A stretch of DNA of 64,000 nt from an uncultured bacterium (GCA_903872035.1 CAIQIZ010000022.1:5156-69155), one strand, 5' to 3'; positions 1 to 21,516 are shown, numbered from the stretch's first letter. Notes: generated by a model from the letters alone, not told the origin. Made by a program: numbers and translations.

Positions 1-76
1 TAGAATATACACAGCACTCTGAAATACTCGAAGTGCAAAACGTGGCTAATTACCCCGTAGAAAGTGAAAAAATAGT

Positions 77-1162
77 ATGAATAGACTCCTAGCTCCGTTG
101 GACGTTCAGTTAGAAGTAACTGAGCGTTGTAATCAGAATTGTAAACATTGTTACAACTACTGGCGCCATGAACTACTCCAGCCCGTAGGCGAACTGGAAT
201 CAGCGGGATTCATGTCGGTCATCGAGCAAGCATCAGCAGCAAATGTTGGAACGATCACTTTTACAGGCGGCGAACCCTTGCTCCGTAGATCCATAGTACT
301 TGATCTAATTGCATGCGCGCATTCAAATGGTATAGAGACTGGCTTGAATAGCAATGCGACACTCATTGATCTCTGTACGGCCAAAGATTTGGCTGAATCC
401 GGACTTGACCACGCTCTCATCTCGTTACTGGGACCCAGAGATATCCATAATGATATCGGTGGTGGAGCTTGCGATTTCGATCTGACCCTATCAGGTATGC
501 GGAATCTCAAGGAATCAGGAATATCCACTTCTGTGAATATGGTGGTGTCGAAATTAAGTCTCGCGTATTTGCGACGAACGGCGCTTATCGCCAAGGAAAT
601 CGGTGCGGATACGTTCTGTGCCGGTCCGATGATACCGTCATGTCGCCAGAATATCCCTCTATGCCTTTCACCTTCGGAATGTATTCAGTGCCTGCGTGAA
701 CTGATCGCCGTCGGTAAGGAATTAGACATGAGGGTCGATGTTCTCGAGCCTCTGCCCCGTTGCATATTTAGCGCCGATAATGAAGCGGAATTCATGGGGC
801 TGTTTGGAAACAGAATCTGTTCTGCGGCTGTTTCCTCTTGCGCCATCTCAGCATCAGGGATCATGAGACCATGCATACATTCGGACGTCTGCTATGGCAG
901 CGTTCTTCCAGACAAGTTTGTCGTGGTCTGGGCCGCAATGTCGGAGTGGTCCTCGCCGGAAATCTTTCCGCCAGAATGTCGTAAATGCAATGCCTTAATG
1001 GTTTGTGAAGCAGGATGTCGAATGTCTGCAAAGGTTTGTTCGGGTAGCTACGGTGGTAAAGACCTGTATATGACCGAACCTATCATGGATGTCGCTAGGG
1101 CTTCTCTCCGACGCGATCGCCCACTTGTCATAACGATCGGTCCTGATGACCGCAATAGCTAA
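77..1162 (+). CDS. Radical SAM enzyme with C-terminal SPASM (Cys-rich auxiliary Fe-S cluster) domain; peptide/protein-modifying maturase type
   Basis: CxxxCxxC radical-SAM motif 'CNQNCKHC' near the N-terminus and 'GGEPLL' SAM-binding glycine motif. C-terminal third has many spaced Cys (CRQNIPLC...CIQC...CEAGCRMSAKVC) as in SPASM/twitch domains. The start ATG overlaps the TGA of an upstream ORF that runs off the window start (frame 3, ...EYTQHSEILEVQNVANYPVESEKIV*). Confidence 0.8.
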   Translation: MNRLLAPLDVQLEVTERCNQNCKHCYNYWRHELLQPVGELESAGFMSVIEQASAANVGTITFTGGEPLLRRSIVLDLIACAHSNGIETGLNSNATLIDLCTAKDLAESGLDHALISLLGPRDIHNDIGGGACDFDLTLSGMRNLKESGISTSVNMVVSKLSLAYLRRTALIAKEIGADTFCAGPMIPSCRQNIPLCLSPSECIQCLRELIAVGKELDMRVDVLEPLPRCIFSADNEAEFMGLFGNRICSAAVSSCAISASGIMRPCIHSDVCYGSVLPDKFVVVWAAMSEWSSPEIFPPECRKCNALMVCEAGCRMSAKVCSGSYGGKDLYMTEPIMDVARASLRRDRPLVITIGPDDRNS

Positions 1163-1170
1163 TAATAAAC

Positions 1171-2437
1171 TGCAACCATAGTCCGTTAGGATTTTTCTCC
1201 TGATTTTTCAGGATTTTGGCTTCCGTGTTTCCTCTGCACATCATACAGCACGGCTCGAAGCCTCTCAATCTCTTTTAGTAAAACTGCCGGATTAAGTGTC
1301 GCGTGTTCCTTACGTAGTTTTTCTTTAACTTCCTCGGAAATCTTCGGGTGTTCCAACACTCGTTGGTATGGGGTCTTGGGAACTTTTTCGTATACTTTTT
1401 TGTACTTCGATCCGATCCTCACCTTCTCAATGCATTTTCTTGAAGGAATGAAATGATTCAGGTATGGGCAAAGCACCGCATACAAATTGTTCAAAGCGGG
1501 AACTGCTTCTTTGCAATCCAGTCGAATATATCCAACGTATTTTCTGACAATGTGGCCGTTTCTTTCTTCAACATACGCATTGTCATTCTTGTGATTCGGT
1601 CTACTTCTGGTCATCTTAATATCATTGGTATCACAATATCTTTTGCAAAGCCAGTTGATGAATTCGCTACCAGTATCAGGGTGAATTGAACACAGCGAGA
1701 AAGGAAGGCTACCCTTGATATTTATGAGGCTTGCTACAGTCGCTTCTTGGCCTTTGTTCCACTGTGCCCGAGCAATGTCCCACAAGACTGGAATATCAAT
1801 GTAATTAAGGGTATATACGAAGTCTCCGAGCAATGTAGAACCGCAATGTGCTACGGTATCGATCTGACCGCTTCCTGGCAATTTATTTTCCCACGGTCCG
1901 GTGAAGACCGGAATGATGTGCTTCAAATTCGATGGTGAAGTGAGTGAGAATCCACGACCTTTTCTTCGTGCCTTCAAAAACTCACCAACCCTTGCTTTCA
2001 TCGTGGCCATACTCATGGCCAAGAGTTTGCCAGTGGCTTCATCCGAATTTTCCCACATCTTTGCACGTCGGAGGATGTTCACGTATTCGCTTACCATCGG
2101 AAAAAGCAATTCGCCACATAGCTCGTTACCGGCTTCCCAGACATCTTTCAAGGCGGCGACCACATCGGATGTGTAATACACCTTCCGGCCCCTTGATTCT
2201 GCGGCGCAAGGATCTTTTCCTTGGAGATTGCTAAACTTGCGGATCGCGGCTTTACGATTCATACGCACCGCTTCACAGACTAGATCGAGTATTCTAGTCA
2301 AAATTGACCTTTTTCGATCAGCTCTGGCTTTGAAGTATTCATCCTTGTAGCGCTCAAATATTTGATTTTTTGTTTCCATGTTCATATGGAAACTACGGTA
2401 ACCTATTTATTAGCTATCCACTCGGATTATGGTTGCA
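1171..2437 (-). mobile_element. Insertion sequence, about 1.27 kb, single rve-type DDE transposase gene, flanked by 15-bp terminal inverted repeats
   Basis: Left end 1171-1185 is 'TGCAACCATAGTCCG'. The right end 2423-2437 reads as its reverse complement 'TGCAACCATAATCCG' (14/15 match). These repeats bracket the transposase ORF 1186..2385 exactly. No clear target-site duplication was seen. Confidence 0.6.
1186..2385 (-). CDS. DDE transposase with integrase-core (rve) domain and N-terminal HTH
   Basis: rve catalytic region 'DTVAHCG...HPDTGSEFINW...SRPNHKNDNAYVEERNG' carries the D, D and E-bearing motifs typical of the IS3/IS481 retroviral-integrase superfamily. The N-terminus is a basic helix-rich (HTH-like) region. 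Confidence 0.8.
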   Translation of the reverse strand: MNMETKNQIFERYKDEYFKARADRKRSILTRILDLVCEAVRMNRKAAIRKFSNLQGKDPCAAESRGRKVYYTSDVVAALKDVWEAGNELCGELLFPMVSEYVNILRRAKMWENSDEATGKLLAMSMATMKARVGEFLKARRKGRGFSLTSPSNLKHIIPVFTGPWENKLPGSGQIDTVAHCGSTLLGDFVYTLNYIDIPVLWDIARAQWNKGQEATVASLINIKGSLPFSLCSIHPDTGSEFINWLCKRYCDTNDIKMTRSRPNHKNDNAYVEERNGHIVRKYVGYIRLDCKEAVPALNNLYAVLCPYLNHFIPSRKCIEKVRIGSKYKKVYEKVPKTPYQRVLEHPKISEEVKEKLRKEHATLNPAVLLKEIERLRAVLYDVQRKHGSQNPEKSGEKS

Positions 2438-2488
2438 TTTATTTTTAGCTATATCGCCGTCTTTACCGATTTTATTTATAATTATATA

Positions 2489-3169
2489 ATGACCCCAATG
2501 AACTCAATCATCGTAAATTGGTCAGGAGAAGACAAAAAGGCGTTGGAATCCATAGCTTCTCGTATTTCGGCTGAATTGAATGATGTTCTCAAAATGGGGG
2601 ATCGTCCGCCTCTGACGATCACTATCCATGATTCGAGAGATAGCTATGAGAAGCGGCTCAATAAGAAGACAGAGACATGGGAAGTCGGCAACGCTTCACG
2701 TGATGGTCAGATTGATATCCTTCATCCCGATGCATTTGAAAAATATTCGACGCACAAGAAAGGTGAATTTTCATCGATCTTGAAACATGAAGTCGTTCAT
2801 GTTTATCTCAGAGCCCTGGCAGAGGATCACTATATACCGCATTGGCTCAATGAAGGTCTGGCGAATTATCTAACGCATCAGGAAGGTTCTCATGGCGAAC
2901 TCGCTCCGCTATTCATCGAATCGAATTTTACCACTAAACTCTCGTCTGGCTATGATTGGGATGCCAGAGTGAAGTACGGCGCCTATTTGCTAGCGCGTTT
3001 GTTCACAAAATACCTGATCGATAAGTTTACTTTTGATAAAGTCATAGAACTAGTCAAAGATCTCGATAAGAATTTTTATGAGCCGTCGTTCAGAACGAAA
3101 TTCCGAAATCATTTTAATGTAGATCTAAGTGAGGCTGAGAATAGCTTTGTGATGGAGATAAACAAGTAA
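2489..3169 (+). CDS. Hypothetical zinc-metallopeptidase-like protein (HExxH followed by EGLAxY, peptidase-MA-like)
   Basis: 'LKHEVVHVYL...HWLNEGLANYL' is HExxH plus a downstream Glu in an EGLA-Y context, as in the peptidase MA (PF13485-like) family. The track ORF starts at 2429 inside the IS inverted repeat; the likely start is the ATG at 2489 (MTPMNS...). Confidence 0.4.
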   Translation: MTPMNSIIVNWSGEDKKALESIASRISAELNDVLKMGDRPPLTITIHDSRDSYEKRLNKKTETWEVGNASRDGQIDILHPDAFEKYSTHKKGEFSSILKHEVVHVYLRALAEDHYIPHWLNEGLANYLTHQEGSHGELAPLFIESNFTTKLSSGYDWDARVKYGAYLLARLFTKYLIDKFTFDKVIELVKDLDKNFYEPSFRTKFRNHFNVDLSEAENSFVMEINK

Positions 3170-3422
3170 ATTCCTTTGAATATTCACTGAATAGTGCAAA
3201 CGGCGAAGAAGGTTTTTTACACTTTACGAATCACCTAAAGAATGGTATCGTTATCCCGTATGACAACATACACCACAACTGCACAGTCCATGTATCCGAT
3301 CACCAATAAGCTTGTTGGTACCGGCGTTTTTGCCGATTGCCGCAACAGCTATATTTTGTGCAGCCGAGGTATGACTTTCTCTATTTCCATCTAACAGAGT
3401 CCAATCATCTCATTCAAGGAAT

Positions 3423-3457
3423 ATCCCGGCTGAACGAAAGCCGGGATTTTGTTTTCC
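3423..3457 (+). terminator. Rho-independent terminator hairpin
   Basis: 'CCCGGCT-GAACGAA-AGCCGGG' is a 7-bp GC stem followed by 'ATTTTGTTTTCC'. Confidence 0.5.
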
Positions 3458-3524
3458 GTGCCAACAGACAGCCTTCGGATGATTCCGGAGCATAGTACAT
3501 TAACACCAAAATAGAATAGGATAT

Positions 3525-4139
3525 ATGAAAAAGAGCAAAACAGTTAGGATAATCAAGGGCAGTATAGGTATCATCGCCTTTCTCAAAGGCAAGAGAGTGA
3601 CTCTGCGGCCAGTCTCAGAAAAAGATATTCCACTTTTTCTGCGCTGGTTCAATGATCCGGAAGTCCGGCAATTCATTACGACAATATTCCCGGTCACGGA
3701 AGCCGGTGAACGTGAATGGGTAGAGGGCTTGACCAAGAAGTCGTCTACGGATGTCGTACTCGTGATCGAAGTCAAAGGAGTTCCGATAGGGACTATGGGA
3801 CTTCATCGCATCAATTGGCAGGATCGCACGGCTACGACAGGAGCGGTCATCGGAGATAAGAGATATTGGAACAAAGGTTATGGCACGGACGCCAAAATGG
3901 TCCTGCTCGACTATGCCTTCAACACTCTGAATCTCCGCAAGATCATGTCCACGGCCATTGCGTTCAATAGACGAAGTGTAGCTTATAGCCAGAAGTGTGG
4001 TTATAAAATTGAGGCCACGCTCTCGAGCCAGCATTTCAGGAATGGTCGTTATTGGGACGAGATCATTCTCGGCCTGTTCAAAGAGCAATGGCTTCCGTAC
4101 TGGCAGAAGTATTGCCAGAAAAGCGCCCGAAACTCATAA
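3525..4139 (+). CDS. GNAT family N-acetyltransferase (RimJ/RimL-like)
   Basis: Acetyl-CoA binding region 'VIGDKRYWNKGYGTDAKMVLLDYAFNTLNLRKI' matches GNAT motif A. 204 aa. Confidence 0.75.
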   Translation: MKKSKTVRIIKGSIGIIAFLKGKRVTLRPVSEKDIPLFLRWFNDPEVRQFITTIFPVTEAGEREWVEGLTKKSSTDVVLVIEVKGVPIGTMGLHRINWQDRTATTGAVIGDKRYWNKGYGTDAKMVLLDYAFNTLNLRKIMSTAIAFNRRSVAYSQKCGYKIEATLSSQHFRNGRYWDEIILGLFKEQWLPYWQKYCQKSARNS

Positions 4140-4162
4140 TGGTCAATGATGTGACATCGTAC

Positions 4163-4194
4163 AGCGGCAGGTAATACTGCCGCTTTTGTATTTG
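4163..4194. terminator. Bidirectional rho-independent terminator between the GNAT gene (+) and the histidine kinase (-)
   Basis: 'AGCGGCAG-GTAATA-CTGCCGCT' is a perfect 8-bp stem followed by 'TTTGTATTTG'. Confidence 0.55.
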
Positions 4195-4327
4195 TCTATT
4201 TACTCAAACCGCTTGGATATCCAAAAGATAACATAGAGCGCCAGCATAGTTTTCCAAGCAAGATAGATAAAGATCACCATGATCGCGCCCAAAACGAGAG
4301 CCAATGGGACCATTAATATAGTATTGG

Positions 4328-5995
4328 TCATATTGTAGAAATAGGTAGATTTATCATCACTCTCGCCCCTGCGTCTTTTCCATCCGACTCGATCCCAAAT
4401 GTTCCGTGATGCGCTTTTATGATCGCCTTGGCAACAGAAAGGCCGACGCCCATGCCGATCTTGTTAACCTTGCGCGCATTTTCGCCCCGGTAGAACAGGG
4501 TAGAACCGATCTTGGAGACTTCTTCCGAGGAAATGCCAATGCCAGAATTTTCTATGATCAAACTGAATCGACCATTGACTACCTGTGTGGAAATTTTGAT
4601 ATGACCACCGTCGTGATTGTAGGTGATAGCGTTTTCCATAATGATGAGCAAGATATCGCGCATTTTACCGAAGTCGATCATCAATTCTGGCCAAGCGGAT
4701 TCATCAGGCTGATAGCTGACCGTGATGTGTCTACGCTCAATTTCTGTTTTAAGCACAAGAAGGATCTCCTCGATCGCCGGTTTCAAGCTGTTACGCGAAG
4801 GGGTCAGGATGTTCTGTCCCGGCTTCATTGTTGTGATGTTCAGAAAATCGTCAATGATGTGGTTCAGCCGCGAGGTTGCTGTTTGAGCTTGGCCTGCGGC
4901 TACCTTCAGTTTCTGAGTGGTTTTGCCACAATCGCCATCTAGCATTGATCCAAGCTCTCGTTCTATGGTCGTGACCGGTGTGCGCAGGTGATGTTGGGTG
5001 ATCATGATGAACTGATTCTTGGCCTCATTCAACTTCTCCAGTTCCCGTCGCGCTTCTTTCTCCAAATCGTATGCTGTGCGTATCTCGTTCGTCTGTTCTG
5101 CCACCTTTTCGGCCAAATGCAGGTTGAGGTCTGCTAGCTGTTCCCGTTGCTTCGATTCGCGCAAAGTGCCGCGGACTAGGTAGATGGCCAGTATCAGAAA
5201 GACTATGAATGTCCCTACATCTTCCCATACACCCCACGGAGTATTGATGAATATGTTGATAAAGAAGATGGCCGTCATGGCTATGGCCAATACTTCGGTG
5301 ATGACCGCACGTACATCCATCTGGCGGTACTTTAGGATCGAGTAGGCGATGATGAAGACCCAGATGGCACTACTGATAGGCCCTAACCAGTTTAACGAGT
5401 AATATCCAAATGTCGGTAAAACGATGTTAACTAATGTTGGAGGGATAATTCCAAAAATCAGTGCCCATAACATTGTTTTCATGTTTGCCCTAAGCATTCC
5501 CGAAGATTTTGTTAATGTCCTGAAGATGTTCTTTATGGAGAGAAACCAAATTAAAATGAATATACAGTCAAAAAGTACATGTAGCGGACCAAAAGTCCAT
5601 GCCCATCGGCCGTTGCCGCCTATCTCATAGACGCCAGTGTTAAGATAAGCGGTAAATTCAAACAAATACGTGAATATCAGGACGATAAATATCGATAATG
5701 TAATCTTTGTTGATGATACAGGGGTGTCGTATGGGTAAATAACAGAGAATTGGTAGAATCCTAAAGCGATGATAATTCCGAGTATAGATTGAATTCTAAT
5801 GACCGAATCAGCAAGTAATGGAAGAGGCGTAATTATTAGAAAACCTTGAGATGCCACCCATATGGCTGTTATAAAAGTTAAAGCTGCAAATACCTTCGAT
5901 GACCGATTTTGACTCCCCATAAGTATTACAATGTCGAGACTACCTATTAGAATAGCGGTAACCCAAATTATGGAAGCAAAAATACTTATTTCCAT
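4328..5995 (-). CDS. Sensor histidine kinase with multi-pass membrane N-terminal sensor region
   Basis: N-terminal ~280 aa is highly hydrophobic, with about 8 predicted TM segments. H-box 'ITQHHLRTPVTTI', N-box 'IIMENAITYN' and G-boxes 'GIGIS...GMGVGLSVAKAIIKAHHG' of HisKA + HATPase_c follow. Confidence 0.85.
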   Translation of the reverse strand: MEISIFASIIWVTAILIGSLDIVILMGSQNRSSKVFAALTFITAIWVASQGFLIITPLPLLADSVIRIQSILGIIIALGFYQFSVIYPYDTPVSSTKITLSIFIVLIFTYLFEFTAYLNTGVYEIGGNGRWAWTFGPLHVLFDCIFILIWFLSIKNIFRTLTKSSGMLRANMKTMLWALIFGIIPPTLVNIVLPTFGYYSLNWLGPISSAIWVFIIAYSILKYRQMDVRAVITEVLAIAMTAIFFINIFINTPWGVWEDVGTFIVFLILAIYLVRGTLRESKQREQLADLNLHLAEKVAEQTNEIRTAYDLEKEARRELEKLNEAKNQFIMITQHHLRTPVTTIERELGSMLDGDCGKTTQKLKVAAGQAQTATSRLNHIIDDFLNITTMKPGQNILTPSRNSLKPAIEEILLVLKTEIERRHITVSYQPDESAWPELMIDFGKMRDILLIIMENAITYNHDGGHIKISTQVVNGRFSLIIENSGIGISSEEVSKIGSTLFYRGENARKVNKIGMGVGLSVAKAIIKAHHGTFGIESDGKDAGARVMINLPISTI

Positions 5996-6047
5996 ATTAA
6001 CAATGAATATGCTTTGTAGTGCCGCAATAATAGCATTTATATAGTAG

Positions 6048-6839
6048 ATGTCACGGACAAAGAATGATATAATATTTGAAACTATCGTGAAAATACTTCG
6101 GAAATTGAAAATTTCTTCTACAGGTGTTCAGAAAACTATTTATTTTGGTATCGCGGATACAAAAGAAGAATTCAACGATGTGTACAGGTTAAGATACCAA
6201 GTTTATGTTAAACATGGATATATCGATGCGTCAAAATACGAGAACAATCTAGAAATTGATTCTAATGACACGTTGGGACTGTGTAAGTATTTTATTGCAA
6301 TTATTGACAATAAAATGATTGGCTGCATAAGACTTATCGTTAGCGATCCATTACCGACTGAAACGTATTTCGATTACTGTGAACCATCAGAAATCAAGTC
6401 GGTGCCTAGAAATGAAAGATGCGAGTTAGGGCGCTTTATAATCATTCCGCCAAATAGGGAAAAGGGTGAATACTTGCCAAGAGGACTAGTGATGTTGTTT
6501 TTGATAGATATTCTCAGCGCGTATGGACTACAGAATAAATTATTCGGCGGTTATTCGTTCATCAAGAAAAGCTTGGAAATTAAAATGGACAAAATGAAAA
6601 TGCCAATTCGCAGAATTGCAGATTTCAAAGAGAAATATCCTACTAATGGCGATCTTTATCGATATTTTTCTCAACCGGATGATGTTGTTGTTCCGGTATA
6701 TTTTCTCACGAAAGAATTTTACGAATTTTCACAGAGGCACATTCATAATAGTCTTATGTTCAAGAATGAGGGGGAGAACTGTCTCATTTTGCGAGAGAAT
6801 CTGTATACTAAATTTCTCCACTCTTTGAAGATACTATGA
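6048..6839 (+). CDS. Putative N-acyltransferase of the autoinducer-synthase (LuxI/FeeM N-acyl amino acid synthase) fold
   Basis: 'YRLRYQVYVKHGY' resembles the conserved R..(V/Y)F...GW block of LuxI/FeeM-type acyltransferases. 'ERCELGRFII' matches the E-x-S/G-R-F/L active-site strand. 263 aa. Its stop overlaps the start of the downstream methyltransferase (ATGA). Confidence 0.5.
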   Translation: MSRTKNDIIFETIVKILRKLKISSTGVQKTIYFGIADTKEEFNDVYRLRYQVYVKHGYIDASKYENNLEIDSNDTLGLCKYFIAIIDNKMIGCIRLIVSDPLPTETYFDYCEPSEIKSVPRNERCELGRFIIIPPNREKGEYLPRGLVMLFLIDILSAYGLQNKLFGGYSFIKKSLEIKMDKMKMPIRRIADFKEKYPTNGDLYRYFSQPDDVVVPVYFLTKEFYEFSQRHIHNSLMFKNEGENCLILRENLYTKFLHSLKIL

Positions 6840-7549
6840 AAACGTTAGGATCTAATTTCTGGAAGAAATATTTTCAAGTATATGATGCTTTGAATGAGCT
6901 GATCCCGTATTCTGCATTACTAAGTACTATCGTTGAGATGCTTGACATACATGATGGGGATACAGTTTTAGATGCTGGATCGGGGACCGGCAATTTGTCC
7001 ATTCTCATAACTCAAGCTGGTGGGAAGGTTGTTGCCTTTGATTCGTCTCAAGAAGGTATGGCTCTTCATAGATGTAAACAACCGACGGCGATACTGATTA
7101 ATGGTGACTTGATGAATCCTCTACCATTCGATAATTCTTCTTTCAACAAGATTTGTTCAAATAATGTGATTTATACTATTCCCAAAAAATACCGGGAGTC
7201 GCTTTTTCGTGAGTTTTATCGAATATTAAGGCCCGGGGGTATCATCGTTGTGTCGAATATCCGTCGTAACTTTTCGCCGACTTCTATCTATGGTGATCAT
7301 GTTAGATCAAGTATCAGACTTTACGGGTTATGGCGAACCACGTGCAATGTGGTCAAGTTGCTGTTTCCAATAATTCGAATATTCTATTATAATTTACGAA
7401 TTCAAAGTGCGAATCATTTCCATTCATATTCATTTATTGATTCAGGTGAACAACACAGTATGTTAGAACTTGCCGGCTTTGCGGACATTTCTCAGGACTA
7501 CAAAGTATATTCAGATCAGGCGATATTAAATCGAGCAATAAAAAGATAG
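6836..7549 (+). CDS. Class I SAM-dependent methyltransferase
   Basis: Motif I 'VLDAGSGTGNLS', motif post-I 'VVAFD' and motif II-like 'IIVVSN'. Translationally coupled to the upstream acyltransferase gene. Confidence 0.8.
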   Translation: MKTLGSNFWKKYFQVYDALNELIPYSALLSTIVEMLDIHDGDTVLDAGSGTGNLSILITQAGGKVVAFDSSQEGMALHRCKQPTAILINGDLMNPLPFDNSSFNKICSNNVIYTIPKKYRESLFREFYRILRPGGIIVVSNIRRNFSPTSIYGDHVRSSIRLYGLWRTTCNVVKLLFPIIRIFYYNLRIQSANHFHSYSFIDSGEQHSMLELAGFADISQDYKVYSDQAILNRAIKR

Positions 7550-7554
7550 AATCC

Positions 7555-9159
7555 ATGGCAAATTTCAGTATCTCAATATTGTCCGTTGTAGTAGTTGCAA
7601 ACATAATTTTAGGCTTGGTTATTTTTTCGCGCGGATTAAGATCGTTTACCAATATTATTTTCGGACTCATTTCAATTGCGTCCGCACTCTGGGGCTTAGC
7701 GATTATAGGATTCTATAGTGATATCTACCATTTTACTTTGAATTGGGTTGTATTTACGCATTCACTAGCACTACTCATCCCATTTTTATTCCTATGCTTT
7801 TCATTGTATTTTCCCAAAAAACTTACATATAGTTCGGTGGTTATCGGTATCGCTACGATTCCGCTACTGATTTTTGAAGGGCTTATAGTATACGGCCATA
7901 CTGTCGTTGGTCTAACTCATAATGAGGTCTACGAACTTGGATTAATGTATCCTTACTTTTCAATCACTCTTGTGTCATTCTTCATAGCTGGATTTATATT
8001 TTCTTTTGTCCAATCAAAACGTGCGAAGGATTCCACTGAGAAGAAGCAAGCTGAGTATGTCCTTATCGGATCATTTATTGCATCAACATTGGCAATAATT
8101 CCTGACCTAATTTTGCCATATCTCCACATGTTTCAATATACATGGCTTGGTCCAATATTTACATTAATTATGGTTGTCTCTCTGTTCTTGGCTATGTTCA
8201 AATATCACTTGTTCAATGTAAAAGTCATTTTGACGGAAATTGTAAGTATTGTGATTGTGGTTGCGTTGCTTATCGAATTGCTAACCGCGCAAACTATTTC
8301 TGAAATAATACTAAAAGCGGTCGTTCTCGTAATTGTAACTATATTTGCCTATATTCTTATACTCGGTGTCTACCGCGAAATCGCACAACGCGAAAAGATC
8401 GAGCTTTTGGCGAAAGATCTACAAAAAGCCAATGATCGGTTGAAGGAATTGGATAAACAAAAGTCTGAATTCATCTCATTCGCATCGCACCAGCTGAGGG
8501 GACCGCTCACGGCCATGAAGGGTTACGGATCATTGCTGTTGGAAGGCGATATGGGAGCTCTCACGAAGGAGGCGCATGAGGGGGTGAGGAGGATATTCGA
8601 TTCGACCAACACCTTGGTACACATAGTTGACGATTATCTGAATATCAGCCGCATAGAATTGGGCACGATGAAATACATATTCGAGAAGATCGACCTTCGA
8701 GACCTGGTTGACGATGTGATCGCCGAATTGGCACCGACTATCAATAACGCGCCGATAAGCTTCGCCTTCGCACCAGAAGAGACGAGCAAAAAATATATGA
8801 TCTCGGCCGATCGCGACAAACTGAAACAGGTGATATCCAATTTGATAGACAATTCCTTGAAGTATACTCCATCAGGAAAGATTGGAGTGACGCTTTCCAC
8901 CGACAAGGTGAGTGGTAAGTACGTATTCAAGATCAAAGATACGGGCATAGGGATCTCTTCCGAGACTTTGCCCCATCTATTCCAGAAATTCAGTCGAGCT
9001 ACCAATGCCAATAAGACCAATATCAAGGGCACAGGCCTGGGTCTATTCGTGGCAAAGCAGATGGTCGAGGCCAATCACGGAACTATTCATGCCGAATCTG
9101 ATGGTGAAGGCAAAGGTTCGACATTCGTGGTGGAGCTGGAGCCGCTTGCGGAAATGTGA
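7555..9159 (+). CDS. Sensor histidine kinase with multi-pass membrane N-terminal sensor region (paralog-like to 4328..5995)
   Basis: About 7-8 hydrophobic helices in the first ~270 aa, then a coiled-coil linker. H-box 'FASHQLRGPLTAM', N-box 'NLIDNSLKYT', G-boxes 'DTGIGIS...GTGLGLFVAKQMVEANHG'. Starts 6 nt after the methyltransferase stop. Confidence 0.85.
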   Translation: MANFSISILSVVVVANIILGLVIFSRGLRSFTNIIFGLISIASALWGLAIIGFYSDIYHFTLNWVVFTHSLALLIPFLFLCFSLYFPKKLTYSSVVIGIATIPLLIFEGLIVYGHTVVGLTHNEVYELGLMYPYFSITLVSFFIAGFIFSFVQSKRAKDSTEKKQAEYVLIGSFIASTLAIIPDLILPYLHMFQYTWLGPIFTLIMVVSLFLAMFKYHLFNVKVILTEIVSIVIVVALLIELLTAQTISEIILKAVVLVIVTIFAYILILGVYREIAQREKIELLAKDLQKANDRLKELDKQKSEFISFASHQLRGPLTAMKGYGSLLLEGDMGALTKEAHEGVRRIFDSTNTLVHIVDDYLNISRIELGTMKYIFEKIDLRDLVDDVIAELAPTINNAPISFAFAPEETSKKYMISADRDKLKQVISNLIDNSLKYTPSGKIGVTLSTDKVSGKYVFKIKDTGIGISSETLPHLFQKFSRATNANKTNIKGTGLGLFVAKQMVEANHGTIHAESDGEGKGSTFVVELEPLAEM

Positions 9160-9171
9160 TGTTATAGTACG

Positions 9172-9975
9172 ATGCTCGCGTCATCGACGAATATGAACTA
9201 CAGAAGTTTTATACCCGAAGTTAAGTTTGAGCCTGCTCCAATAAAGTTAGAGGCTGAATATTTGTATTATTTTTCTCGGATAGAACCGAGATTTGGTGCG
9301 GTAATTAATAGGGTCTATCCAGAGCTGCAGGGCATCATCGAAAAATCAGAGAATAAAAGTGAAGCTATCCTGAAATGTCGAGAATTTGCTGAAAAGGTAA
9401 TCGAAAACAACAAAACGAGCATCATAAAGGCAAAAGATGATTTTCAAAACGATTGGAAATTGGTCAGCACAGAATTTCTCGAGACTTTAAGTGAACATTT
9501 TGAAACCGAATGGCCTAGAGATAAAGGTGTTATAACTGGATACGTATCGATCGTGCCGATATTTCCGCGAATGTTGGATAAGTACTCCTTTTTTGTGGGA
9601 TATCCGGTGAAAATAGCGCGAGCAAGAGAGATAATCGCTCACGAAATCATTCATTTTCTTTGGTTCAAGAAATGGAAAGAGGTATTTCCAGAAATTTCCA
9701 CTGATCAATACAATAGTCCTCATTTAACATGGAGATTGAGTGAAGTAATGGATCAGATCATTCTTCAATGCCACCCCAGGCTCCAAAGTCTGATACATCC
9801 GACGATATGGGGTTACCCGTCATTTATGGATTTGAAGATAGGGAATATTGGTATGACTGAATATTTTGTAAATTTGTATACGAAATGCGTGCAGGAAGGT
9901 CAAAGTTTCGAGAATACATTGAGGGCTCTGTGGAAAGAGGCTCAAGAGAACAAGGAGGTATTGGAGAAGTTTTGA
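9172..9975 (+). CDS. Hypothetical protein with HExxH motif ('AHEIIHFLWF')
   Basis: Clean 267-aa ORF. Single HExxH in a hydrophobic helix. No other recognisable family. Confidence 0.4.
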   Translation: MLASSTNMNYRSFIPEVKFEPAPIKLEAEYLYYFSRIEPRFGAVINRVYPELQGIIEKSENKSEAILKCREFAEKVIENNKTSIIKAKDDFQNDWKLVSTEFLETLSEHFETEWPRDKGVITGYVSIVPIFPRMLDKYSFFVGYPVKIARAREIIAHEIIHFLWFKKWKEVFPEISTDQYNSPHLTWRLSEVMDQIILQCHPRLQSLIHPTIWGYPSFMDLKIGNIGMTEYFVNLYTKCVQEGQSFENTLRALWKEAQENKEVLEKF

Positions 9976-10238
9976 GTATAGAGGCCTTGTCATTGTTTGA
10001 ATCATATTATACTATTAGGACAGAACCGGATCGAATCATAGGCAATTTAGACTCGTGGTTCTACTGCGAGGTTGCGTATGGTCGCCGGTGACCTTTCAAA
10101 ACGAAAGGCTATGCATGAAAACTGCGAATTCCGCCAAACGGAAAGCAATGGTTGGCAATATCGGCCACACCAAAGTCGCCATGACTACCTGCACATGCGG
10201 GTGCTTTTGGAGCTGAGGTTGTCCAATAGTGTCTATCA

Positions 10239-10918
10239 ATGGCGGCTACTACGGCTTTGATAACGCCTTCAGACGTCAAAGTCGCCGCTGGACAGCAGTT
10301 CAACGTCGTCATAGCGGTCAATCCCAATGGCGGCAGTGATTTTGCCGAACAAGTGAAAGTTGATTTTCCGGCTGACCTTATCCAAGTGACCTCATTCAAT
10401 ATCGGAAGCAATTGGATGTCATTGACTCAACCGGGATATGATTCTATAGACAACGTAATGGAGTTTTGACCAAGACAGCCGGATATGCCGGAGGGATAAC
10501 TTCGCAGACGCCATTTGGAACCATTACCTTTACGGCTCTCAAATCCGGAAGCGGTGCTATCACCATCGTGAATGGATCTCAAGCTTTTCAGAAGAACGGT
10601 CAGACGCCTATCACTGGAACAGGAGCGTCCATCGTAGTGACGGCGGCCACAGTTGCACCGAAAACATCTCCGAGGACTACTCTGACAGCATCAGTCTCAA
10701 ATGATCTTACGCCTGTCACGACCATAAACGGTCAAATGGTCTCTACAACACCAGCCCAAGAGGCGGCCACGGCGGTCGCGGCTTCACAAGCGGCGGCAGT
10801 CAATGCTTCCGGAGCAAGCGCGTCAGGTCAGACATGGTTGTGGATATTGCTCGTCATCGTGGTTCTGGCACTCATCGGTTGGTGGATGTTCAGCCGAAAA
10901 CCGCGCTCGAAGTTTTAG
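10239..10918 (+). pseudogene. Cohesin-like/surface-anchored protein split by a +1 frameshift near 10466 (possible pseudogene or sequencing frameshift)
   Basis: ORF 10239..10469 ('...VKVDFPADLIQVTSFNIGSNW...') and ORF 10466..10918 ('...GITSQTPFGTITFTALKSGSGAITIVNGS...') together look like one beta-sandwich cohesin-like domain, then a Thr/Ala-rich linker and a C-terminal TM anchor 'WLWILLVIVVLALIGWW'. The two pieces are in different frames, and no signal-peptide-bearing start is present upstream. The region is GC-richer, with spurious antisense ORFs. Confidence 0.35.
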
Positions 10919-11002
10919 GACTTCAGGCTCCGCCTTTACAAAATAACGTGAATTTACAATACGTTCTTTACTGTTGGCGGAGTATACTGATAGAATGCAA
11001 AT

Positions 11003-11986
11003 ATGAATAAAATTTATCCAAAAAAATTAGAAAAAGGCGATGAAATCAGAGTAATAGCGCCATCCAGGTCGATGTCCATTATTTCTAAGGCAAACGGAGA
11101 GATTGCCGATAAGCGCCTTAGGGATTTGGGTTTTAATATTTCCTTCGGGAAAAATGTTGCAGAAAACGATAGCTTTCATTCCTCATCTATAAAATCAAGG
11201 ATAGCTGATTTACATGAGGCCTTTTTGGATAAGAAAATTAAGGCTGTTTTTGCTGTAATTGGTGGATTTAATTGTAATCAACTTTTACGATATATAGATT
11301 GGAATATTATTAAGAATAATCCCAAGATATTCATCGGTTACTCGGACACCACTGCATTGCAAAACGCTATTTTTGCCAAGACTGGTTTGGTAACATATTC
11401 TGGTCCAGCATGGTCCACTTTTGGTCAGAAGCTTCATTTTGATTACACTTTGGAATATTTTAAAAAATGCTTAATGTCCGACAATAGATTTTCCATTGAA
11501 CCATCTGAAAATTGGACTGATGATGAATGGTTTAATGATCAAGATAAAAGAGAACTAATAAAATATGATGGATGGCTAGTGATAAACAAAGGCAATGCGT
11601 CTGGTACACTGCTCGGTGCAAACCTTTGTACTTTTAACTTGCTTCAGGGAACGGAATATTTTCCGGATCTGAATAATTCGGTCTTATTTTTGGAAGATGA
11701 TGATGACGGTTCACGGAATGCGGGTTTTGATAGAGATTTGCAATCCCTAATTCATCAGCCTTCTTTTAAGGGTGTGAAAGGCATAGTGATCGGTAGATTT
11801 CAAAAGAAAAGTGAGATTACAAAGGAAAAACTAATTCAAATAATAAATACGAAAGCTGAACTTAAGGACATCCCTGTAATTTCAAATGTTGATTTCGGGC
11901 ATACTAGTCCCATAATAACTTTTCCAATAGGTGGTGAGGCAACAGTAGATACTAAAAATAATAGTATTATTATAACTAAGCATTAA
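11003..11986 (+). CDS. LD-carboxypeptidase (peptidase S66; LdcA/MccF-like)
   Basis: Nucleophile motif 'GYSDTTAL' and C-terminal 'VDFGHTSPIITFPIGGEA' His/Glu region characteristic of S66 muramoyl-tetrapeptide carboxypeptidases. Confidence 0.8.
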   Translation: MNKIYPKKLEKGDEIRVIAPSRSMSIISKANGEIADKRLRDLGFNISFGKNVAENDSFHSSSIKSRIADLHEAFLDKKIKAVFAVIGGFNCNQLLRYIDWNIIKNNPKIFIGYSDTTALQNAIFAKTGLVTYSGPAWSTFGQKLHFDYTLEYFKKCLMSDNRFSIEPSENWTDDEWFNDQDKRELIKYDGWLVINKGNASGTLLGANLCTFNLLQGTEYFPDLNNSVLFLEDDDDGSRNAGFDRDLQSLIHQPSFKGVKGIVIGRFQKKSEITKEKLIQIINTKAELKDIPVISNVDFGHTSPIITFPIGGEATVDTKNNSIIITKH

Positions 11987-12022
11987 TTATCGCACTTGTA
12001 AAAAACCTGCTATATTGTCCCC

Positions 12023-13963: not shown

Positions 13964-16900
13964 ATGAAAAAGAAACTCAAAGGAGGTGCCACCTCCAAAT
14001 ATAACCCAGCAACGATCGAGCCAAAATGGCAGAAGAAGTGGGAAAAGGAAAAGCTTTACGTGGCCAAGGAAAAGGCTGGTAAGAAGAAATTTTATGGCTT
14101 GATCGAATTTCCGTATCCATCTGGTGATGGTTTGCATGTTGGCCATATCCGCAGCAATACTGCCATGGATATCATATGCCGAAAGCGACGTCGTGAAGGG
14201 TTCGAAGTGCTATATCCCATAGGATGGGATGCTTTTGGTCTGCCAACAGAGAATTACGCTATCAAGACTGGTATTCAACCTTCAGTAGTCACCAAGAAGA
14301 ACACTGATACCTTCCGCAAACAACTGAAAGCTCTCGGCTTCTCATTCGATTGGTCAAGGGAAGTTAATACGACCGATCCAAAATACTATCGCTGGACGCA
14401 ATGGATATTCTTGCAGCTTTTGAAGAATGGTCTGGCATACAAGAAGAAGATGACGATCAATTGGTGTCCCAAAGATTTGATCGGCTTGGCCAACGAGGAA
14501 GTGGTGAATGGCCGCTGCGAGCGTTGTGGCACGCCGGTAGAGAAGCGTGAAAAGGAACAATGGATGCTGGCTATAACAAAATACGCAGAACGTCTCGACA
14601 GAGATCTTGATGATGTAGATTATCTACCAAAGATTAAGACCCAACAGAGGAATTGGATCGGCAAAAGCGAGGGAGCGGAGATCGATTTTAGATTGACGAT
14701 TAAGAATAGTAAGACGAGATTCGTGATTCTTCATGGCTTCGATGGGGGAGCCACGACGGATTTCCACCCATGGCTAAAAGAAGTGTTGGAGAAGCGTGGT
14801 CATGAAGTTGAACTTCCGGAATTGCCGAACGCCTATCATCCTAAGGAAGCCGAGCAAGTCGAATATGTTCTAAAGAATTGTAAATTGGATGAGAATACGG
14901 TTATTGTCGCTCATAGTTTAGGCGCGGTCGTGGCCATGAAAGCCTTGATGAAATTGAACAAGCCAATCTCTGGTTTGGTCTTGGTGGCCGCTGCCGTCGA
15001 TCCGAAATTCGACAAATTTTATGAGTCGCGTCCATTTGCCAAAGAATTCGACTGGAAATACGATTACGCTTTGCTTCAAAAGCTGACTGGTGGAAAGGTC
15101 GCAGTGCTTTCAGATCTCAAAGAAAAGCACAGAAGTCGTTATTTGAAATTCTTGGCTGAAAAGTTGAATGCACGTTTTGTTGAAACCAGTAGCGTAGAAG
15201 AGCATTTCTGCGCCAAAGAAGAGCCGGAAGTCCTCAAAGCCGTCACTCCATCTATCAAAGTCTTCACCACTCGCCCTGACACGCTCTTCGGGGCGACTTA
15301 TATGGTCTTGGCGCCAGAAAATCCTTGGGTCAAGATAGTTTTATCGCAGCTTGAGAACAAGACTGAAGTTGAAGCATATATCGCCAAAGCCTCGCATGAG
15401 ACAGAGATAGAACGCACTGATGCCACCAAAGAAAAGACGGGCGTCGAATTGAAGGGCGTGAAGGCGGTCAATCCCGCTAACAACGAAGAGATCCCGGTAT
15501 GGATCGCAGATTATGTTCTCTCTGACTACGGCACGGGAGCTATCATGGCTGTTCCGGCGCATGATGAGAGAGACTGGGAGTTTGCCAAGAAATTTGGGTT
15601 GCCGATCCGACATGTCGTTATACCGCAAAGGATTGGATTTCCTGGCGAGCTGGCTTTTCGTCCAAATGAACCGGTTGTCAATCGTAGGGTCATTCGTGCG
15701 GTAGTCAAACATTGGTCAGATAATTCCTACGCAGTTCTGACTTGGAAAGACAATGGCTGGAAGACGTTCATATCCGGTGGTATCGAAGAAGGAGAGGACC
15801 CAGTGACTGCTGCCAAAAGAGAGATATTCGAAGAGATCGGTTACAAAAATGCGGAGTTCGTCGGACCTATAGGTGGGCCGGTTCAAGCGAAGTTCTACGC
15901 GCCAAATAAGAAACAAAATCGTATCGATATCCAACAAGGATTGCTCTTCAAGCTGAAGAATGACGAGCGGGTGGACGTATCTCCTGACGAGCTCAAGATT
16001 CACGAGATGCAATGGTTACCGTGGGAATCTCTTGGTGAATTTATGAAGGGTACCATCATGGACTCATTCTTATTTGAGCGCCTCAATAGTGGTAATAATC
16101 AGTACTTTATCGGTAGTGGCATATTGATCGACTCTGGCCAATTCTCAGGAAGAGATTCCGAGTCGGCCATGAAAGAGATCACCGAATCGGTCGGCGGAAA
16201 ATGGGTCACCAAGTACAAGCTTCGCGATTGGGTATTTTCTCGTCAGCGGTATTGGGGCGAGCCTATTCCGGTCGTGCATTGTGACGCTTGTGAAGCGAAA
16301 GATCCTGACAATGGTGGCTGGGTTCCAATTCCGGAAAAGGACCTGCCGGTAAAGCTGCCGGTCGTGAAGAATTATAAACCGACACAGACTGGGGAATCTC
16401 CATTGGCTGCCATGACCAAATGGGTCAATGTCAAATGTCCAGTATGTAAGGGACCAGCCAAAAGAGAGACTGATACTATGCCGAACTGGGCTGGCTCGAG
16501 CTGGTACTACTTGCGCTATGTCGACCCAAAGAATGCGACACGATTTGCTGACTCAAAGAAATTGAAGTATTGGACACCTGTCGACTGGTATAACGGCGGT
16601 ATGGAACATACCACCTTACACCTCCTATATTCGCGTTTCTGGCACAAATTCTTGTTCGACCAGGGCGTGGTCCCGACGAGCGAGCCATATACAAAGAGGA
16701 CTTCCCACGGGCTCATCCTGGCGGAATTCGGGGTGAAGATGTCCAAGTCCAAAGGTAACGTTGTCAATCCAGATACCATCGTTAAAGCTGTCGGTGCCGA
16801 TGCGTTACGTGTATACGAGATGTTCATGGGACCTTTCGATCAACCGATCGCTTGGGATACGGACAATATCGCTGGATCACGCCGTTTCATTGAACGCGTT

Positions 16901-21060: not shown

Positions 21061-21516
21061 TTAGCCGAGTTTCCCCGAATTGAGCTGGTCTGCCATTGCC
21101 AAGGCTTCGACTAAGGCTTCAGCGCCCGTATTCCAGATCCATACCGAGTCGGCACCATAATCCAGGGCCTTCGTGATTGTCGCGGTGTCATCCTCGTAAA
21201 GCCTTAAGCAAATCGGCACGCGTACGATTCTCCGCTCATCTTCAACTGTGGAGCGAATGCCCCGAATTACATCCAATCCGTCAGGTATCGGCGAATCAAG
21301 GACCAGGTCAACGAGGACCATGCCAATGTTATTAGCGTATTCCAGGTACGTAGTGATGCCCGAATCGCCATTTTTTGCCTCGATGTATGAATGGCCAAGT
21401 GCCCGAAGAAGCCGAGAATTGGCCCTCCGGCTTGAATCATCTGCACATATGATAAGTACGATCATAGATATATCTCCTCTTGAGTTTTCTGCTATTGAAT
21501 GTAAGATGTAATTCAT
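21061..21516 (-). CDS. Stand-alone response-regulator receiver (REC)-like domain protein, atypical
   Basis: 'IVLIICADDSS...' acidic pocket and 'GMVLVDLVLDSPIPDGLD' phospho-acceptor Asp context. The conserved Lys near the C-terminus is not obvious. Confidence 0.5.
   Translation of the reverse strand: MNYILHSIAENSRGDISMIVLIICADDSSRRANSRLLRALGHSYIEAKNGDSGITTYLEYANNIGMVLVDLVLDSPIPDGLDVIRGIRSTVEDERRIVRVPICLRLYEDDTATITKALDYGADSVWIWNTGAEALVEALAMADQLNSGKLG

What the first reader, a model, noticed from the sequence alone, without database searches (positions are those of the whole stretch)
4328..9159. Candidate acyl-signal synthesis/sensing module: two divergent multi-TM histidine kinases flanking a LuxI/FeeM-fold N-acyltransferase and a SAM methyltransferase
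HK(-) 4328..5995 and acyltransferase(+) 6048..6839 are divergently transcribed across a ~50-nt gap. The acyltransferase, methyltransferase (6836..7549; ATGA overlap) and a second HK (7555..9159; 6-nt gap) form a tight co-directional unit. Both kinases have a 7-8 helix integral-membrane sensor region and no periplasmic domain, which fits sensing a membrane-partitioning ligand. The acyltransferase has the 'YRLRYQVY' and 'E-x-G-R-F' blocks of the autoinducer-synthase / long-chain N-acyl amino acid synthase fold. The coupled methyltransferase could methylate the acyl product. No response regulator is adjacent; the only REC-like gene in the window is the atypical orphan at 21061..21516. Together this looks like an undescribed make-and-sense signalling module, plausibly N-acyl amino acid or another acylated signal, in a streamlined genome.
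Basis: partly seen in the sequence, partly recalled or inferred. Interest (0 to 1): 0.8.

Follow-up and report, generated by a model that had tools for sequence, protein, structure and literature searches.

The report
Lipid-amide synthase operon with membrane kinase
Ultra-small Patescibacteria (CPR) carry a tightly conserved operon that pairs a LuxI/FeeM-type fatty-acyl transferase and a methyltransferase with a seven-helix membrane sensor kinase, probably a make-and-sense lipid-signal circuit; the synthase–kinase pairing was already noted computationally in 2020, and nothing about it has been tested at the bench.

Summary

The acyltransferase (AT), methyltransferase (MT) and 7TM-kinase triplet recurs in 20 of 21 evaluable related loci, at 31–57% AT identity. 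Gene junctions have a median gap of 3 nt. AT and MT are fused in three independent representatives, in both orders. AT divergence tracks the kinase's sensor domain but not its catalytic core (partial Mantel r = 0.65, p = 2e-4).

- **Not undescribed.** Bernard et al. 2020 listed 18 CPR "LuxI homolog / sensory kinase" pairs, including my locus L012. They read the product as AHL and did not mention the methyltransferase.
- **A missed partner.** A PlsC-type O-acyltransferase accompanies the cassette in 13 of 23 loci. In this organism it lies about 140 bp left of the window. This opens an ornithine-lipid-like membrane-aminolipid reading.

No response regulator is linked in any locus. My best reading is a methylated N-acyl amine or amino-acid lipid that is sensed inside the membrane by the co-encoded HisKA_7TM kinases. 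The product and the sensing are both inferred.

The parts
4328..5995 (-). HK1: a second, divergently transcribed HisKA_7TM histidine kinase, paralogous to HK2
   Evidence: ORF. Pfam HisKA_7TM 34.0 bits (GA 28.6), HisKA, HATPase_c. Its sensor half is homologous to HK2's. Full-length orthologs sit in the same divergent position in L007 and L014, with shorter copies in L010, L012 and L017. The G1 box reads NSGIGI where DxGxG is normal, so kinase activity may be altered.
5996..6047 (.). 52-nt AT-rich divergent intergenic region between HK1 and the AT-MT-HK2 unit; presumed shared promoter region (inferred)
   Evidence: Sequence. Promoter-like hexamers overlap it on the minus strand, but the scan is not above shuffled expectation (24 found against 18.6 +/- 3.9).
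6048..6839 (+). AT: LuxI/FeeM-fold long-chain N-acyltransferase, the first enzyme of the pathway
6836..7549 (+). MT: class I SAM-dependent methyltransferase, translationally coupled to AT (ATGA overlap)
   Evidence: Pfam Methyltransf_11/25/31. Always adjacent to AT, in either order. Fused to AT in L016/P0085, P0093 and P0168. Best solved relatives are CypM, phosphoethanolamine N-MTs, RebM and LahSB.
7555..9159 (+). HK2: the conserved cassette kinase, with nine TM helices (GPCR-like 7TM module plus two) and a DHp/CA core
9172..9975 (+). Possible accessory gene: 267-aa protein with an HEIIH (HExxH) motif, 12 nt after HK2; membership doubtful
   Evidence: No significant Pfam hit. The only homolog in related loci is inside the L026 cassette. 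No terminator-like site between it and HK2.

Best explanation
This is one instance of a Patescibacteria-specific operon whose minimal unit is three genes: AT, MT and a 7TM kinase. Proposed mechanism: the LuxI/FeeM-fold acyltransferase moves a long acyl chain, from a carrier-bound or CoA-bound fatty acid that must ultimately be scavenged, onto the amino group of an amino acid or related amine. The SAM methyltransferase, which is sometimes physically fused to AT, then methylates that product. The likeliest effect is to cap a charged group (carboxylate to methyl ester, or amine to N-methyl), giving a neutral, membrane-partitioning lipid amide. In many genomes a PlsC-type O-acyltransferase modifies it further, and an ABC exporter sits alongside. 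The co-translated kinase HK2 binds the compound inside its GPCR-like seven-helix bundle and changes its autophosphorylation. In this genome the paralog HK1 may do the same. Output goes to an unlinked response regulator. Shown here: gene identities, folds, operon structure, conservation, fusions, and AT-sensor co-variation. Inferred: substrate, site of methylation, ligand binding by the kinase, and whether the compound acts between cells (autoinducer-like) or reports on the cell's own membrane.
For: (1) AT has the LuxI/FeeM fold with the catalytic Glu and the family's conserved Arg/Asp set. (2) AT and MT are always adjacent although their order flips, and they are fused three times in both orientations, so they act in one pathway. 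(3) The kinase follows AT/MT in 20 of 21 evaluable loci down to 31% AT identity. The median junction is 3 nt and 84% of junctions are <=25 nt. In L029 the three genes stand alone between unrelated divergent cell-wall genes. (4) The sensor is entirely membrane-embedded, is predicted to have a GPCR-like fold, and has invariant Trp residues shared with free-standing 7TM paralogs in the same operons. (5) AT distance correlates with sensor-domain distance (r 0.67) but not with kinase-core distance once the sensor is controlled for: partial Mantel AT~sensor|core r 0.65, p 2e-4; AT~core|sensor r -0.19. (6) Precedents for a synthase co-encoded with a multi-TM kinase that senses its product: LuxM/LuxN (nine TM), CqsA/CqsS (six TM) (PMC5007282), and the SAM methyltransferase PhcB with the kinase PhcS (PMC8578825). 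(7) The cassette is kept in a complete 579-kb genome (L028), which implies selection.
Confidence: 0.42

Rival explanations
1. Membrane aminolipid pathway. AT acts like OlsB (N-acylation of an amino acid with a hydroxy-fatty acid), the PlsC-type enzyme acts like OlsA (O-acylation to an acyloxyacyl lipid), and MT acts like OlsG (head-group N-methylation). Together they make a phosphorus-free structural lipid. The 7TM kinase monitors membrane or lipid state and is not a receptor for a diffusible cue.
For: AT passes Pfam Acetyltransf_5. A PF01553 acyltransferase lies within 2 kb in 13 of 23 loci in at least five different flanking contexts: fused to an MTase-like domain in L022, between two AT paralogs in L018, and about 140 bp left of this window. 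OlsBA/OlsF and the N-methyltransferase OlsG are the known logic for such lipids (PMC12971839; PMC12493201). MT's best solved relatives include amine and phosphoethanolamine N-methyltransferases. ABC exporters of the MsbA type flank an HK in L010, L014 and L028.
Against: The PlsC-type gene is dispensable for the cassette: it is absent next to it in 10 of 23 loci, and L029 is a bare AT-MT-HK unit. The kinase is more tightly linked to AT/MT than the O-acyltransferase is. None of the 27 NCBIfam models named in the AT and MT hit tables is an OlsB or OlsG model: the AT's only hit is TIGR03694, and only the best 25 of the MT's 48 hits were shown. Known aminolipid operons are not reported with an embedded orphan kinase in the two reviews searched. 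Receptor-module paralogy (extra HKs, 1-3 free-standing 7TM genes) and AT-sensor co-variation look more like ligand-receptor evolution.
Confidence: 0.3
2. Canonical AHL quorum sensing, as proposed by Bernard et al. 2020. AT is a true LuxI-type synthase that makes an acyl-homoserine lactone from SAM, and the adjacent kinase is a LuxN-like AHL receptor.
For: The closest solved structures and the only PDB sequence hits are AHL synthases. Six of nine LuxI-family signature residues are identical and two more are aromatic swaps. Some relatives pass Pfam Autoind_synth, for example P0093 at 28.4 and P0207 at 41.8. Published as a candidate system (PMC7567580).
Against: The window protein fails the Autoind_synth gathering score (17.1 against 24) but passes FeeM. 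LasI Ser103 is Gly here. An obligatory, often fused, methyltransferase has no role in AHL synthesis. The fold and motifs are shared with N-acyl amino acid synthases, so they do not discriminate.
Confidence: 0.1
3. The product is not sensed by the kinases. AT+MT make a bioactive N-acyl amino acid derivative (a surfactant or antibiotic aimed at hosts or competitors), and the kinases respond to some other membrane cue and merely regulate, or are co-regulated with, the operon.
For: N-acyl amino acids from NAS enzymes have surfactant and antibacterial activity, and their physiological role is unsettled (PMC4897644; PMC7293339). No ligand is known for HisKA_7TM.
Against: This does not explain why AT divergence tracks the sensor domain specifically. 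It also does not explain why the kinase, and not a regulator, is the invariant partner with overlapping stop and start codons.
Confidence: 0.1
4. Lipopeptide (RiPP-like) maturation. AT acylates and MT methylates a ribosomal peptide, which is exported by the ABC transporter and sensed by the kinase, as in Agr-type systems.
For: MT's top solved hits include the peptide methyltransferases CypM and LahSB. Radical SAM/SPASM genes lie near the cassette in the window, L014 and L026. ABC exporters are nearby.
Against: There is no room for a precursor gene: junctions have a median gap of 3 nt, and L029 is a bare three-gene unit. The three radical SAM proteins match different curated families and occur in only 3 loci.
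Confidence: 0.03

Closest known systems
CPR 'LuxI homolog / sensory kinase' pairs catalogued by Bernard et al. 2020 (mSystems, PMC7567580)
   Same: The same gene family and the same adjacency. Their syntenic group 15 (Ca. Taylorbacteria RIFCSPHIGHO2_02_FULL_44_12: 'HdtS' gene 351, 'LuxI' gene 354, 'CqsS' kinase gene 355) is my locus L012, and group 18 (Yonathbacteria) is P0040. They also noted that Trp35 is replaced by Phe or Tyr.
   Different: Purely computational. The product was assumed to be AHL. The methyltransferase is not mentioned (0 occurrences in the main text). The PlsC-type gene was labelled as an HdtS 'AHL synthase'. There are no fusions, no structure and no co-evolution analysis.
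Vibrio LuxM/LuxN and CqsA/CqsS (Legionella LqsA/LqsS/LqsT) autoinducer synthase - membrane kinase pairs
   Same: The synthase gene lies next to a multi-TM histidine kinase that binds the hydrophobic product within its helices. LuxN has nine TM helices and CqsS six (PMC5007282). Two kinases for one signal has a precedent in Lqs.
   Different: LuxM and CqsA are unrelated enzyme types. LuxN and CqsS are hybrid kinases with receiver domains feeding a phosphorelay, whereas HK1 and HK2 have no REC domain. The sensor here is HisKA_7TM. A methyltransferase step is added.
Ralstonia PhcB/PhcS
   Same: A SAM-dependent methyltransferase makes a fatty-acid methyl-ester signal that is sensed by a histidine kinase (PMC8578825, PMC11960443; that phcB and phcS share an operon is my own knowledge, not read in those abstracts).
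   Different: There is no acyltransferase step in Phc, and the signal is a methyl ester of a free hydroxy-fatty acid. I did not test sequence relatedness of MT to PhcB.
[quoted passage not shown]
   Same: Best curated family match (FeeM above GA; TIGR03694 is the only NCBIfam hit), the same fold, and a conserved catalytic Glu (PMC4897644).
   Different: Below the TIGR03694 cutoff. No exosortase or PEP-CTERM genes in any locus. About 60 extra residues (an N-terminal hairpin and a C-terminal extension). An obligatory MT and kinase partner.
Ornithine-lipid pathway OlsB/OlsA (or OlsF) with OlsG N-methylation; Bacteroides glycine-lipid genes
   Same: An Acetyltransf_5-type N-acyltransferase plus a PlsC-type O-acyltransferase plus a methyltransferase (PMC12971839; bioRxiv 10.1101/371807).
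   Different: The O-acyltransferase is not universal here. No Ols-specific model is matched. No kinase is part of the known Ols operons in the reviews searched. The hosts are lipid auxotrophs.
N-acyl alanine methyl esters (NAMEs) of Roseovarius
   Same: [quoted passage not shown]
   Different: NAME biosynthetic genes are unknown (PMC11580390). No link to this family was tested, and NAMEs are not known to signal.

Membership tests
LuxI-type AHL synthase (Pfam PF00765) | Score at or above the Pfam gathering threshold | tested here: not met
   17.1 bits against GA 24 for the window protein. Some relatives pass (P0093 28.4, P0207 41.8).
LuxI-type AHL synthase (Pfam PF00765) | LuxI fold (GNAT-like with an acyl-chain pocket) | tested here: met
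LuxI-type AHL synthase (Pfam PF00765) | Conserved signature residues (LasI R23, F27, W33, D44, D47, R70, E101, S103, R104) | tested here: inconclusive
   R49, D71, D74, R95, E126 and R129 are identical and invariant. F27 becomes Y53, and W33 is replaced by a neighbouring Tyr (Y58). S103 becomes G128. These residues are largely shared with NAS enzymes.
LuxI-type AHL synthase (Pfam PF00765) | Uses SAM as amino donor, forms the lactone and releases MTA | not testable with these tools
   Needs an enzyme assay.
[quoted passage not shown] | Score at or above the curated thresholds | tested here: inconclusive
   FeeM 39.8 >= 27, but covering only profile positions 1-100 of 158. TIGR03694 48.9 < 111.95. 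FeeM chain 2G0B is not found by the family profile at E <= 10.
[quoted passage not shown] | Catalytic glutamate (FeeM Glu95 / Nas354 Glu103) | tested here: met
   E126 in ELGRF is invariant in 23 sequences and aligns to LasI E101. Its equivalence to FeeM Glu95 is my inference from shared family homology; PMC4897644 gives only the FeeM Glu95 / Nas354 Glu103 equivalence.
[quoted passage not shown] | Genomic link to PEP-CTERM/exosortase genes (TIGR03694 subfamily) | tested here: not met
   No exosortase or PEP-CTERM Pfam hit among the called genes of L001-L006, L028 and L029, nor among recurrent neighbour families.
OlsB/OlsA-type aminolipid pathway | Acetyltransf_5-type N-acyltransferase | tested here: met
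   PF13444 30.2 >= 22.4.
OlsB/OlsA-type aminolipid pathway | Adjacent or fused PlsC-family O-acyltransferase | tested here: inconclusive
   PF01553 gene within 2 kb in 13 of 23 loci. In this organism it is 6.2 kb upstream and outside the window (L001 3088-3810). Absent next to the cassette in 10 loci.
OlsB/OlsA-type aminolipid pathway | OlsG-like head-group N-methyltransferase | tested here: inconclusive
   MT is a generic class I SAM MTase. PDB neighbours mix N- and O-methyltransferases. No OlsG sequence was available for comparison.
Autoinducer-receptor histidine kinases (LuxN/CqsS type) | Multi-TM sensor without an extracytoplasmic domain, encoded next to the synthase | tested here: met
   Nine helices and short loops. 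Adjacency in 20 of 21 loci.
Autoinducer-receptor histidine kinases (LuxN/CqsS type) | Hybrid architecture with a C-terminal receiver domain feeding a phosphorelay | tested here: not met
   No Response_reg domain in HK1 or HK2 or in the L023 ortholog.
Autoinducer-receptor histidine kinases (LuxN/CqsS type) | Binds the cognate synthase product | not testable with these tools
   Only indirect evidence: AT-sensor co-variation. Bernard et al. report a CqsS-sensory-domain HMM hit (44.5 bits) on the L012 ortholog; I did not retest this.
HisKA_7TM sensor domain (PF16927) | Score at or above the Pfam gathering threshold (28.6) | tested here: met
   HK1 34.0. HK2 25.7 is just below, but HK2 is homologous to HK1's sensor and its orthologs pass (L023 at 68 bits, free-standing L023 7TM at 33.2).

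The most novel reading that the evidence does not exclude
HisKA_7TM is a GPCR-like intramembrane receptor for a self-made methylated N-acyl amino acid (a NAME-like AHL analogue). On this reading the AT-MT-HK cassette is a native autoinducer circuit of ultra-small, host-dependent Patescibacteria, built from scavenged host fatty acids. It would supply the first genes for NAME-type compounds and the first ligand for an orphan sensor domain that is also found in archaea.
Probability: 0.22. Interest if true: 0.8.

Novelty: new variant of a known kind. Interest (0 to 1): 0.55.

Why it matters
Patescibacteria make up a large share of bacterial diversity. They are reported to lack lipid, amino-acid and nucleotide synthesis (PMC11665869), and how they perceive hosts or each other is essentially unknown.

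A three-gene cassette that survives in a 579-kb genome, and that hard-wires a lipid-amide synthase to a membrane receptor kinase, is a concrete entry point that can be expressed in a heterologous host:
- It could give the HisKA_7TM domain its first ligand.
- It could correct the published assumption that these enzymes make AHLs.

If the membrane-lipid reading is right instead, it would show that lipid-auxotrophic bacteria still tailor and monitor a private class of lipids.

Tried and rejected
1. The ~230-aa gene family F2 upstream of the cassette as the missing response regulator: rejected. It is a PlsC-family acyltransferase.

2. Strain-level disruption of HK1, suggested by gene calls of 389 and 530 aa in same-organism contigs: rejected. 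The DNA is 100% identical over the region, so these are gene-caller differences.

3. A linked response regulator: phmmer with CheY, PhoB and OmpR receivers found only single-domain REC genes 3-7 kb away in L009, L022 and L027. The window's REC-like gene has no relatives in those loci.

4. PrsK-type (PEP-CTERM) identity for the 7TM-GAF kinases: not among the top NCBIfam hits.

5. Radical SAM genes as cassette members: they match different curated families and occur in only 3 loci.

6. The HExxH protein at 9172-9975 as a conserved member: only one other locus, L026, has it.

7. Promoter and terminator scan: not above shuffled expectation.

8. Source annotations for the four proteins: none carry names.

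9. Craig et al. 2011 (NAS/PEP-CTERM) and Escobedo-Hinojosa et al. 2015 (OlsG) are not held in the library. I relied on papers that cite them.

10. The homolog search with the HK2 sensor returned only 6 proteins, so the sensor model rests on a shallow alignment.

11. The PDB sequence search could not resolve MT regiochemistry.

Full report
**Observation.** ORF listing reproduces the finding exactly: HK1 4328-5995 (-), AT 6048-6839 (+), MT 6836-7549 (+), HK2 7555-9159 (+). AT and MT overlap by ATGA. MT and HK2 are 5 nt apart, not 6. HK1 and AT are divergent across 52 nt.

Pfam gives these results:
- AT matches FeeM at 39.8 bits (GA 27), Acetyltransf_5 at 30.2 (GA 22.4) and Autoind_synth at 17.1 (below GA 24).
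- NCBIfam's only hit for AT is TIGR03694, the PEP-CTERM-associated acyltransferase, below its cutoff.
- MT is a generic class I SAM methyltransferase.
- Both kinases carry HisKA, HATPase_c and the HisKA_7TM sensor. HK1 is above GA and HK2 just below.

Hydropathy and an AlphaFold model of HK2 residues 1-281 (pLDDT 82.7) show nine membrane helices and no extracytoplasmic domain. The two sensor halves are homologous (E 8e-12). The window's only REC-like gene (21061-21516) is sub-threshold at 21.2 bits against 30.2.

**Conservation.** The family is small and essentially confined to Patescibacteria:
- 77 clusters in a word-indexed search of 5.8 billion proteins.
- 122 representatives at E <= 1e-30 in an exhaustive search.

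I examined 23 loci from other organisms. AT, MT and a 7TM kinase are contiguous in 20 of the 21 that have enough flanking sequence. The exception is L008. L011 and L018 are cut by contig ends. AT identity to the window protein ranges from 57% down to 31%. The AT/MT order flips between lineages, yet the two genes never separate, apart from a two-gene insertion in L026. Across 57 same-strand junctions the median gap is 3 nt, and 84% are <=25 nt.

AT and MT are fused in L016/P0085 (AT-MT), P0093 (AT-MT) and P0168 (MT-AT). In L029 the three genes stand alone between divergently oriented MurJ and glycosyltransferase genes, which defines the minimal unit. L028 comes from a complete 578,798-bp genome and reads PlsC-like, MT, AT, 7TM-HK, ABC exporter.

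A ~230-aa gene immediately upstream of the cassette in many loci is not a response regulator. It is a PlsC/LPLAT-family acyltransferase with the H(x)4D and FPEG motifs. It lies within 2 kb in 13 of 23 loci and in several unrelated flanking contexts. In L022 it is fused to a second MTase-like domain. In L018 it sits between two AT paralogs.

The window organism has its copy at L001 3088-3810, which ends about 140 bp left of window position 1. It is separated from AT by 6.2 kb that holds:
- a radical SAM gene;
- a 399-aa protein with weak similarity to the integrase catalytic core;
- a BSP-like peptidase;
- a GNAT;
- HK1.

Other recurrent neighbours are ABC exporters and extra receptor modules. 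ABC exporters directly flank a kinase in L010, L014 and L028. The extra receptor modules are second kinases, as here and in L007, L014 and L021, and one to three free-standing HisKA_7TM proteins in L019, L023 and L025. In those three loci and L026 the kinase is ~730-760 aa; Pfam showed an added GAF domain in the L023 kinase.

**Coupling of enzyme and sensor.** Across 18 loci, pairwise AT distance correlates with distance in the first 230 residues of the kinase (r 0.67) much better than with its last 245 residues (r 0.27). Partial Mantel tests give the following:
- AT~sensor controlling for core: r 0.65, p 2e-4.
- AT~core controlling for sensor: r -0.19.
- MT~sensor controlling for core: r 0.35, p 0.003.

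This is what synthase-receptor co-evolution predicts. The kinase core is an imperfect phylogenetic control, however.

**Prior art.** Bernard et al. [quoted passage not shown] Their Table S4 group 15 is Ca. Taylorbacteria RIFCSPHIGHO2_02_FULL_44_12, with 'HdtS' at gene 351, 'LuxI' at gene 354 and a 'CqsS' kinase at gene 355. That contig is my L012, where the same positions hold the PlsC-like gene, AT and HK, and the unflagged genes 352 and 353 are the second kinase and MT. Group 18 corresponds to P0040. The synthase-kinase pairing is therefore published, though only computationally. The paper assumes AHL and never mentions a methyltransferase.

**Mechanism.** My preferred reading (confidence 0.42) has four steps:
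1. AT N-acylates an amino acid or amine.
2. MT methylates the product to a neutral lipid amide.
3. The co-translated 7TM kinase detects it within the membrane.
4. An unlinked regulator carries the output.

Precedents are LuxM/LuxN and CqsA/CqsS and the methyltransferase/kinase pair PhcB/PhcS.

The main rival (0.30) is an OlsB/OlsA/OlsG-like membrane aminolipid pathway with the kinase as a membrane-state sensor. The PlsC-type partner is its best support. The bare AT-MT-HK units and the receptor paralogy count against it.

Three further readings get lower weight:
- A true AHL synthase (0.10) is disfavoured by the sub-threshold Autoind_synth score and by the obligatory MT.
- An unsensed bioactive product gets 0.10.
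- A RiPP-type lipopeptide gets 0.03 and is disfavoured by the lack of room for a precursor gene.

Whichever is right, the acyl donor is a puzzle. Patescibacteria are reported to lack lipid synthesis, and none of the ~31 window proteins I scanned is an ACP or a fatty-acid synthesis enzyme.

**Verdict.** Relative to characterised systems this is a new variant of the synthase-plus-membrane-kinase theme. Relative to the literature on CPR it is another member of an already catalogued pairing. Several points may be new; I found none of them in the papers I searched:
- the obligatory and sometimes fused methyltransferase;
- the PlsC-type and ABC partners;
- the free-standing 7TM paralogs;
- the GPCR-like sensor model;
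- the AT-sensor co-variation.

Interest is 0.55.

Noticed in passing
window 13964-17458 (+): The leucyl-tRNA synthetase is 1164 aa. According to precomputed Pfam hits it carries inserted Ser_hydrolase/Abhydrolase and NUDIX domains between its synthetase segments, which is an unusual architecture for LeuRS.
   Followed up: no
window 1186-2385 (-): A 399-aa protein with no Pfam hit but weak phmmer matches to retroviral integrase catalytic cores (residues 170-292, E about 3e-3). It is likely a DDE transposase, and it lies in the 6.2-kb stretch that separates the PlsC-like gene (left of the window) from the cassette.
   Followed up: partly
window 4328-5995 (HK1), G1 box near residue 483: HK1 has NSGIGI where histidine kinases normally have DxGxG. 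Its orthologs vary: NTGVGM in L007 and DSGLGI in L014. All HK2-type kinases where the motif was identified (all but the first L021 kinase) keep the Asp. HK1 may bind ATP poorly, or may act mainly as a phosphatase or modulator.
   Followed up: partly
P0140 (617 aa, from the exhaustive search): A member of the AT family is fused to a PLP-dependent Aminotran_1_2 domain, the class that includes alpha-oxoamine synthases such as CqsA and serine palmitoyltransferase. This hints that some relatives acylate an amino-ketone or sphingoid-type amine.
   Followed up: no
L019 407-1823; L023 8624-9298; L025 325-2424: One to three free-standing HisKA_7TM proteins (224-238 aa, no kinase domain) are encoded directly upstream of MT-AT-HK. 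In these loci the kinase is ~730-760 aa; a GAF domain was confirmed by Pfam for L023 only.
   Followed up: partly
window 9172-9975 (+) and L026 9130-9843: A 267-aa protein with an HEIIH motif and no family assignment follows HK2 by 12 nt. Its only homolog in the related loci sits inside the L026 cassette, next to a radical SAM/SPASM gene.
   Followed up: partly
window 6048-12000: AT (35% GC), MT (38%), HK2 (42%), the HExxH gene (39%) and LdcA (35%) are below the window mean of 46% GC. This may be a compositionally distinct segment.
   Followed up: no
window 1-12000 compared with L001-L006: The same organism is recovered at 99.98-100% nucleotide identity from at least five independent metagenome samples (JGI 3300009175, SRR5754711, SRR5581337, ERZ27313068, ERZ18624244).
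   Followed up: partly
window 77-1162 (+): A radical SAM/SPASM protein (best NCBIfam similarity to NirJ2/AhbD-type and peptide maturases, all far below cutoffs) sits at the left edge of the window. No obvious substrate gene was identified.
   Followed up: no
window 42390-47410 (+): An HlyD-family adaptor plus an AcrB-type RND transporter pair, which is notable in a presumed monoderm-like, reduced genome.
   Followed up: no
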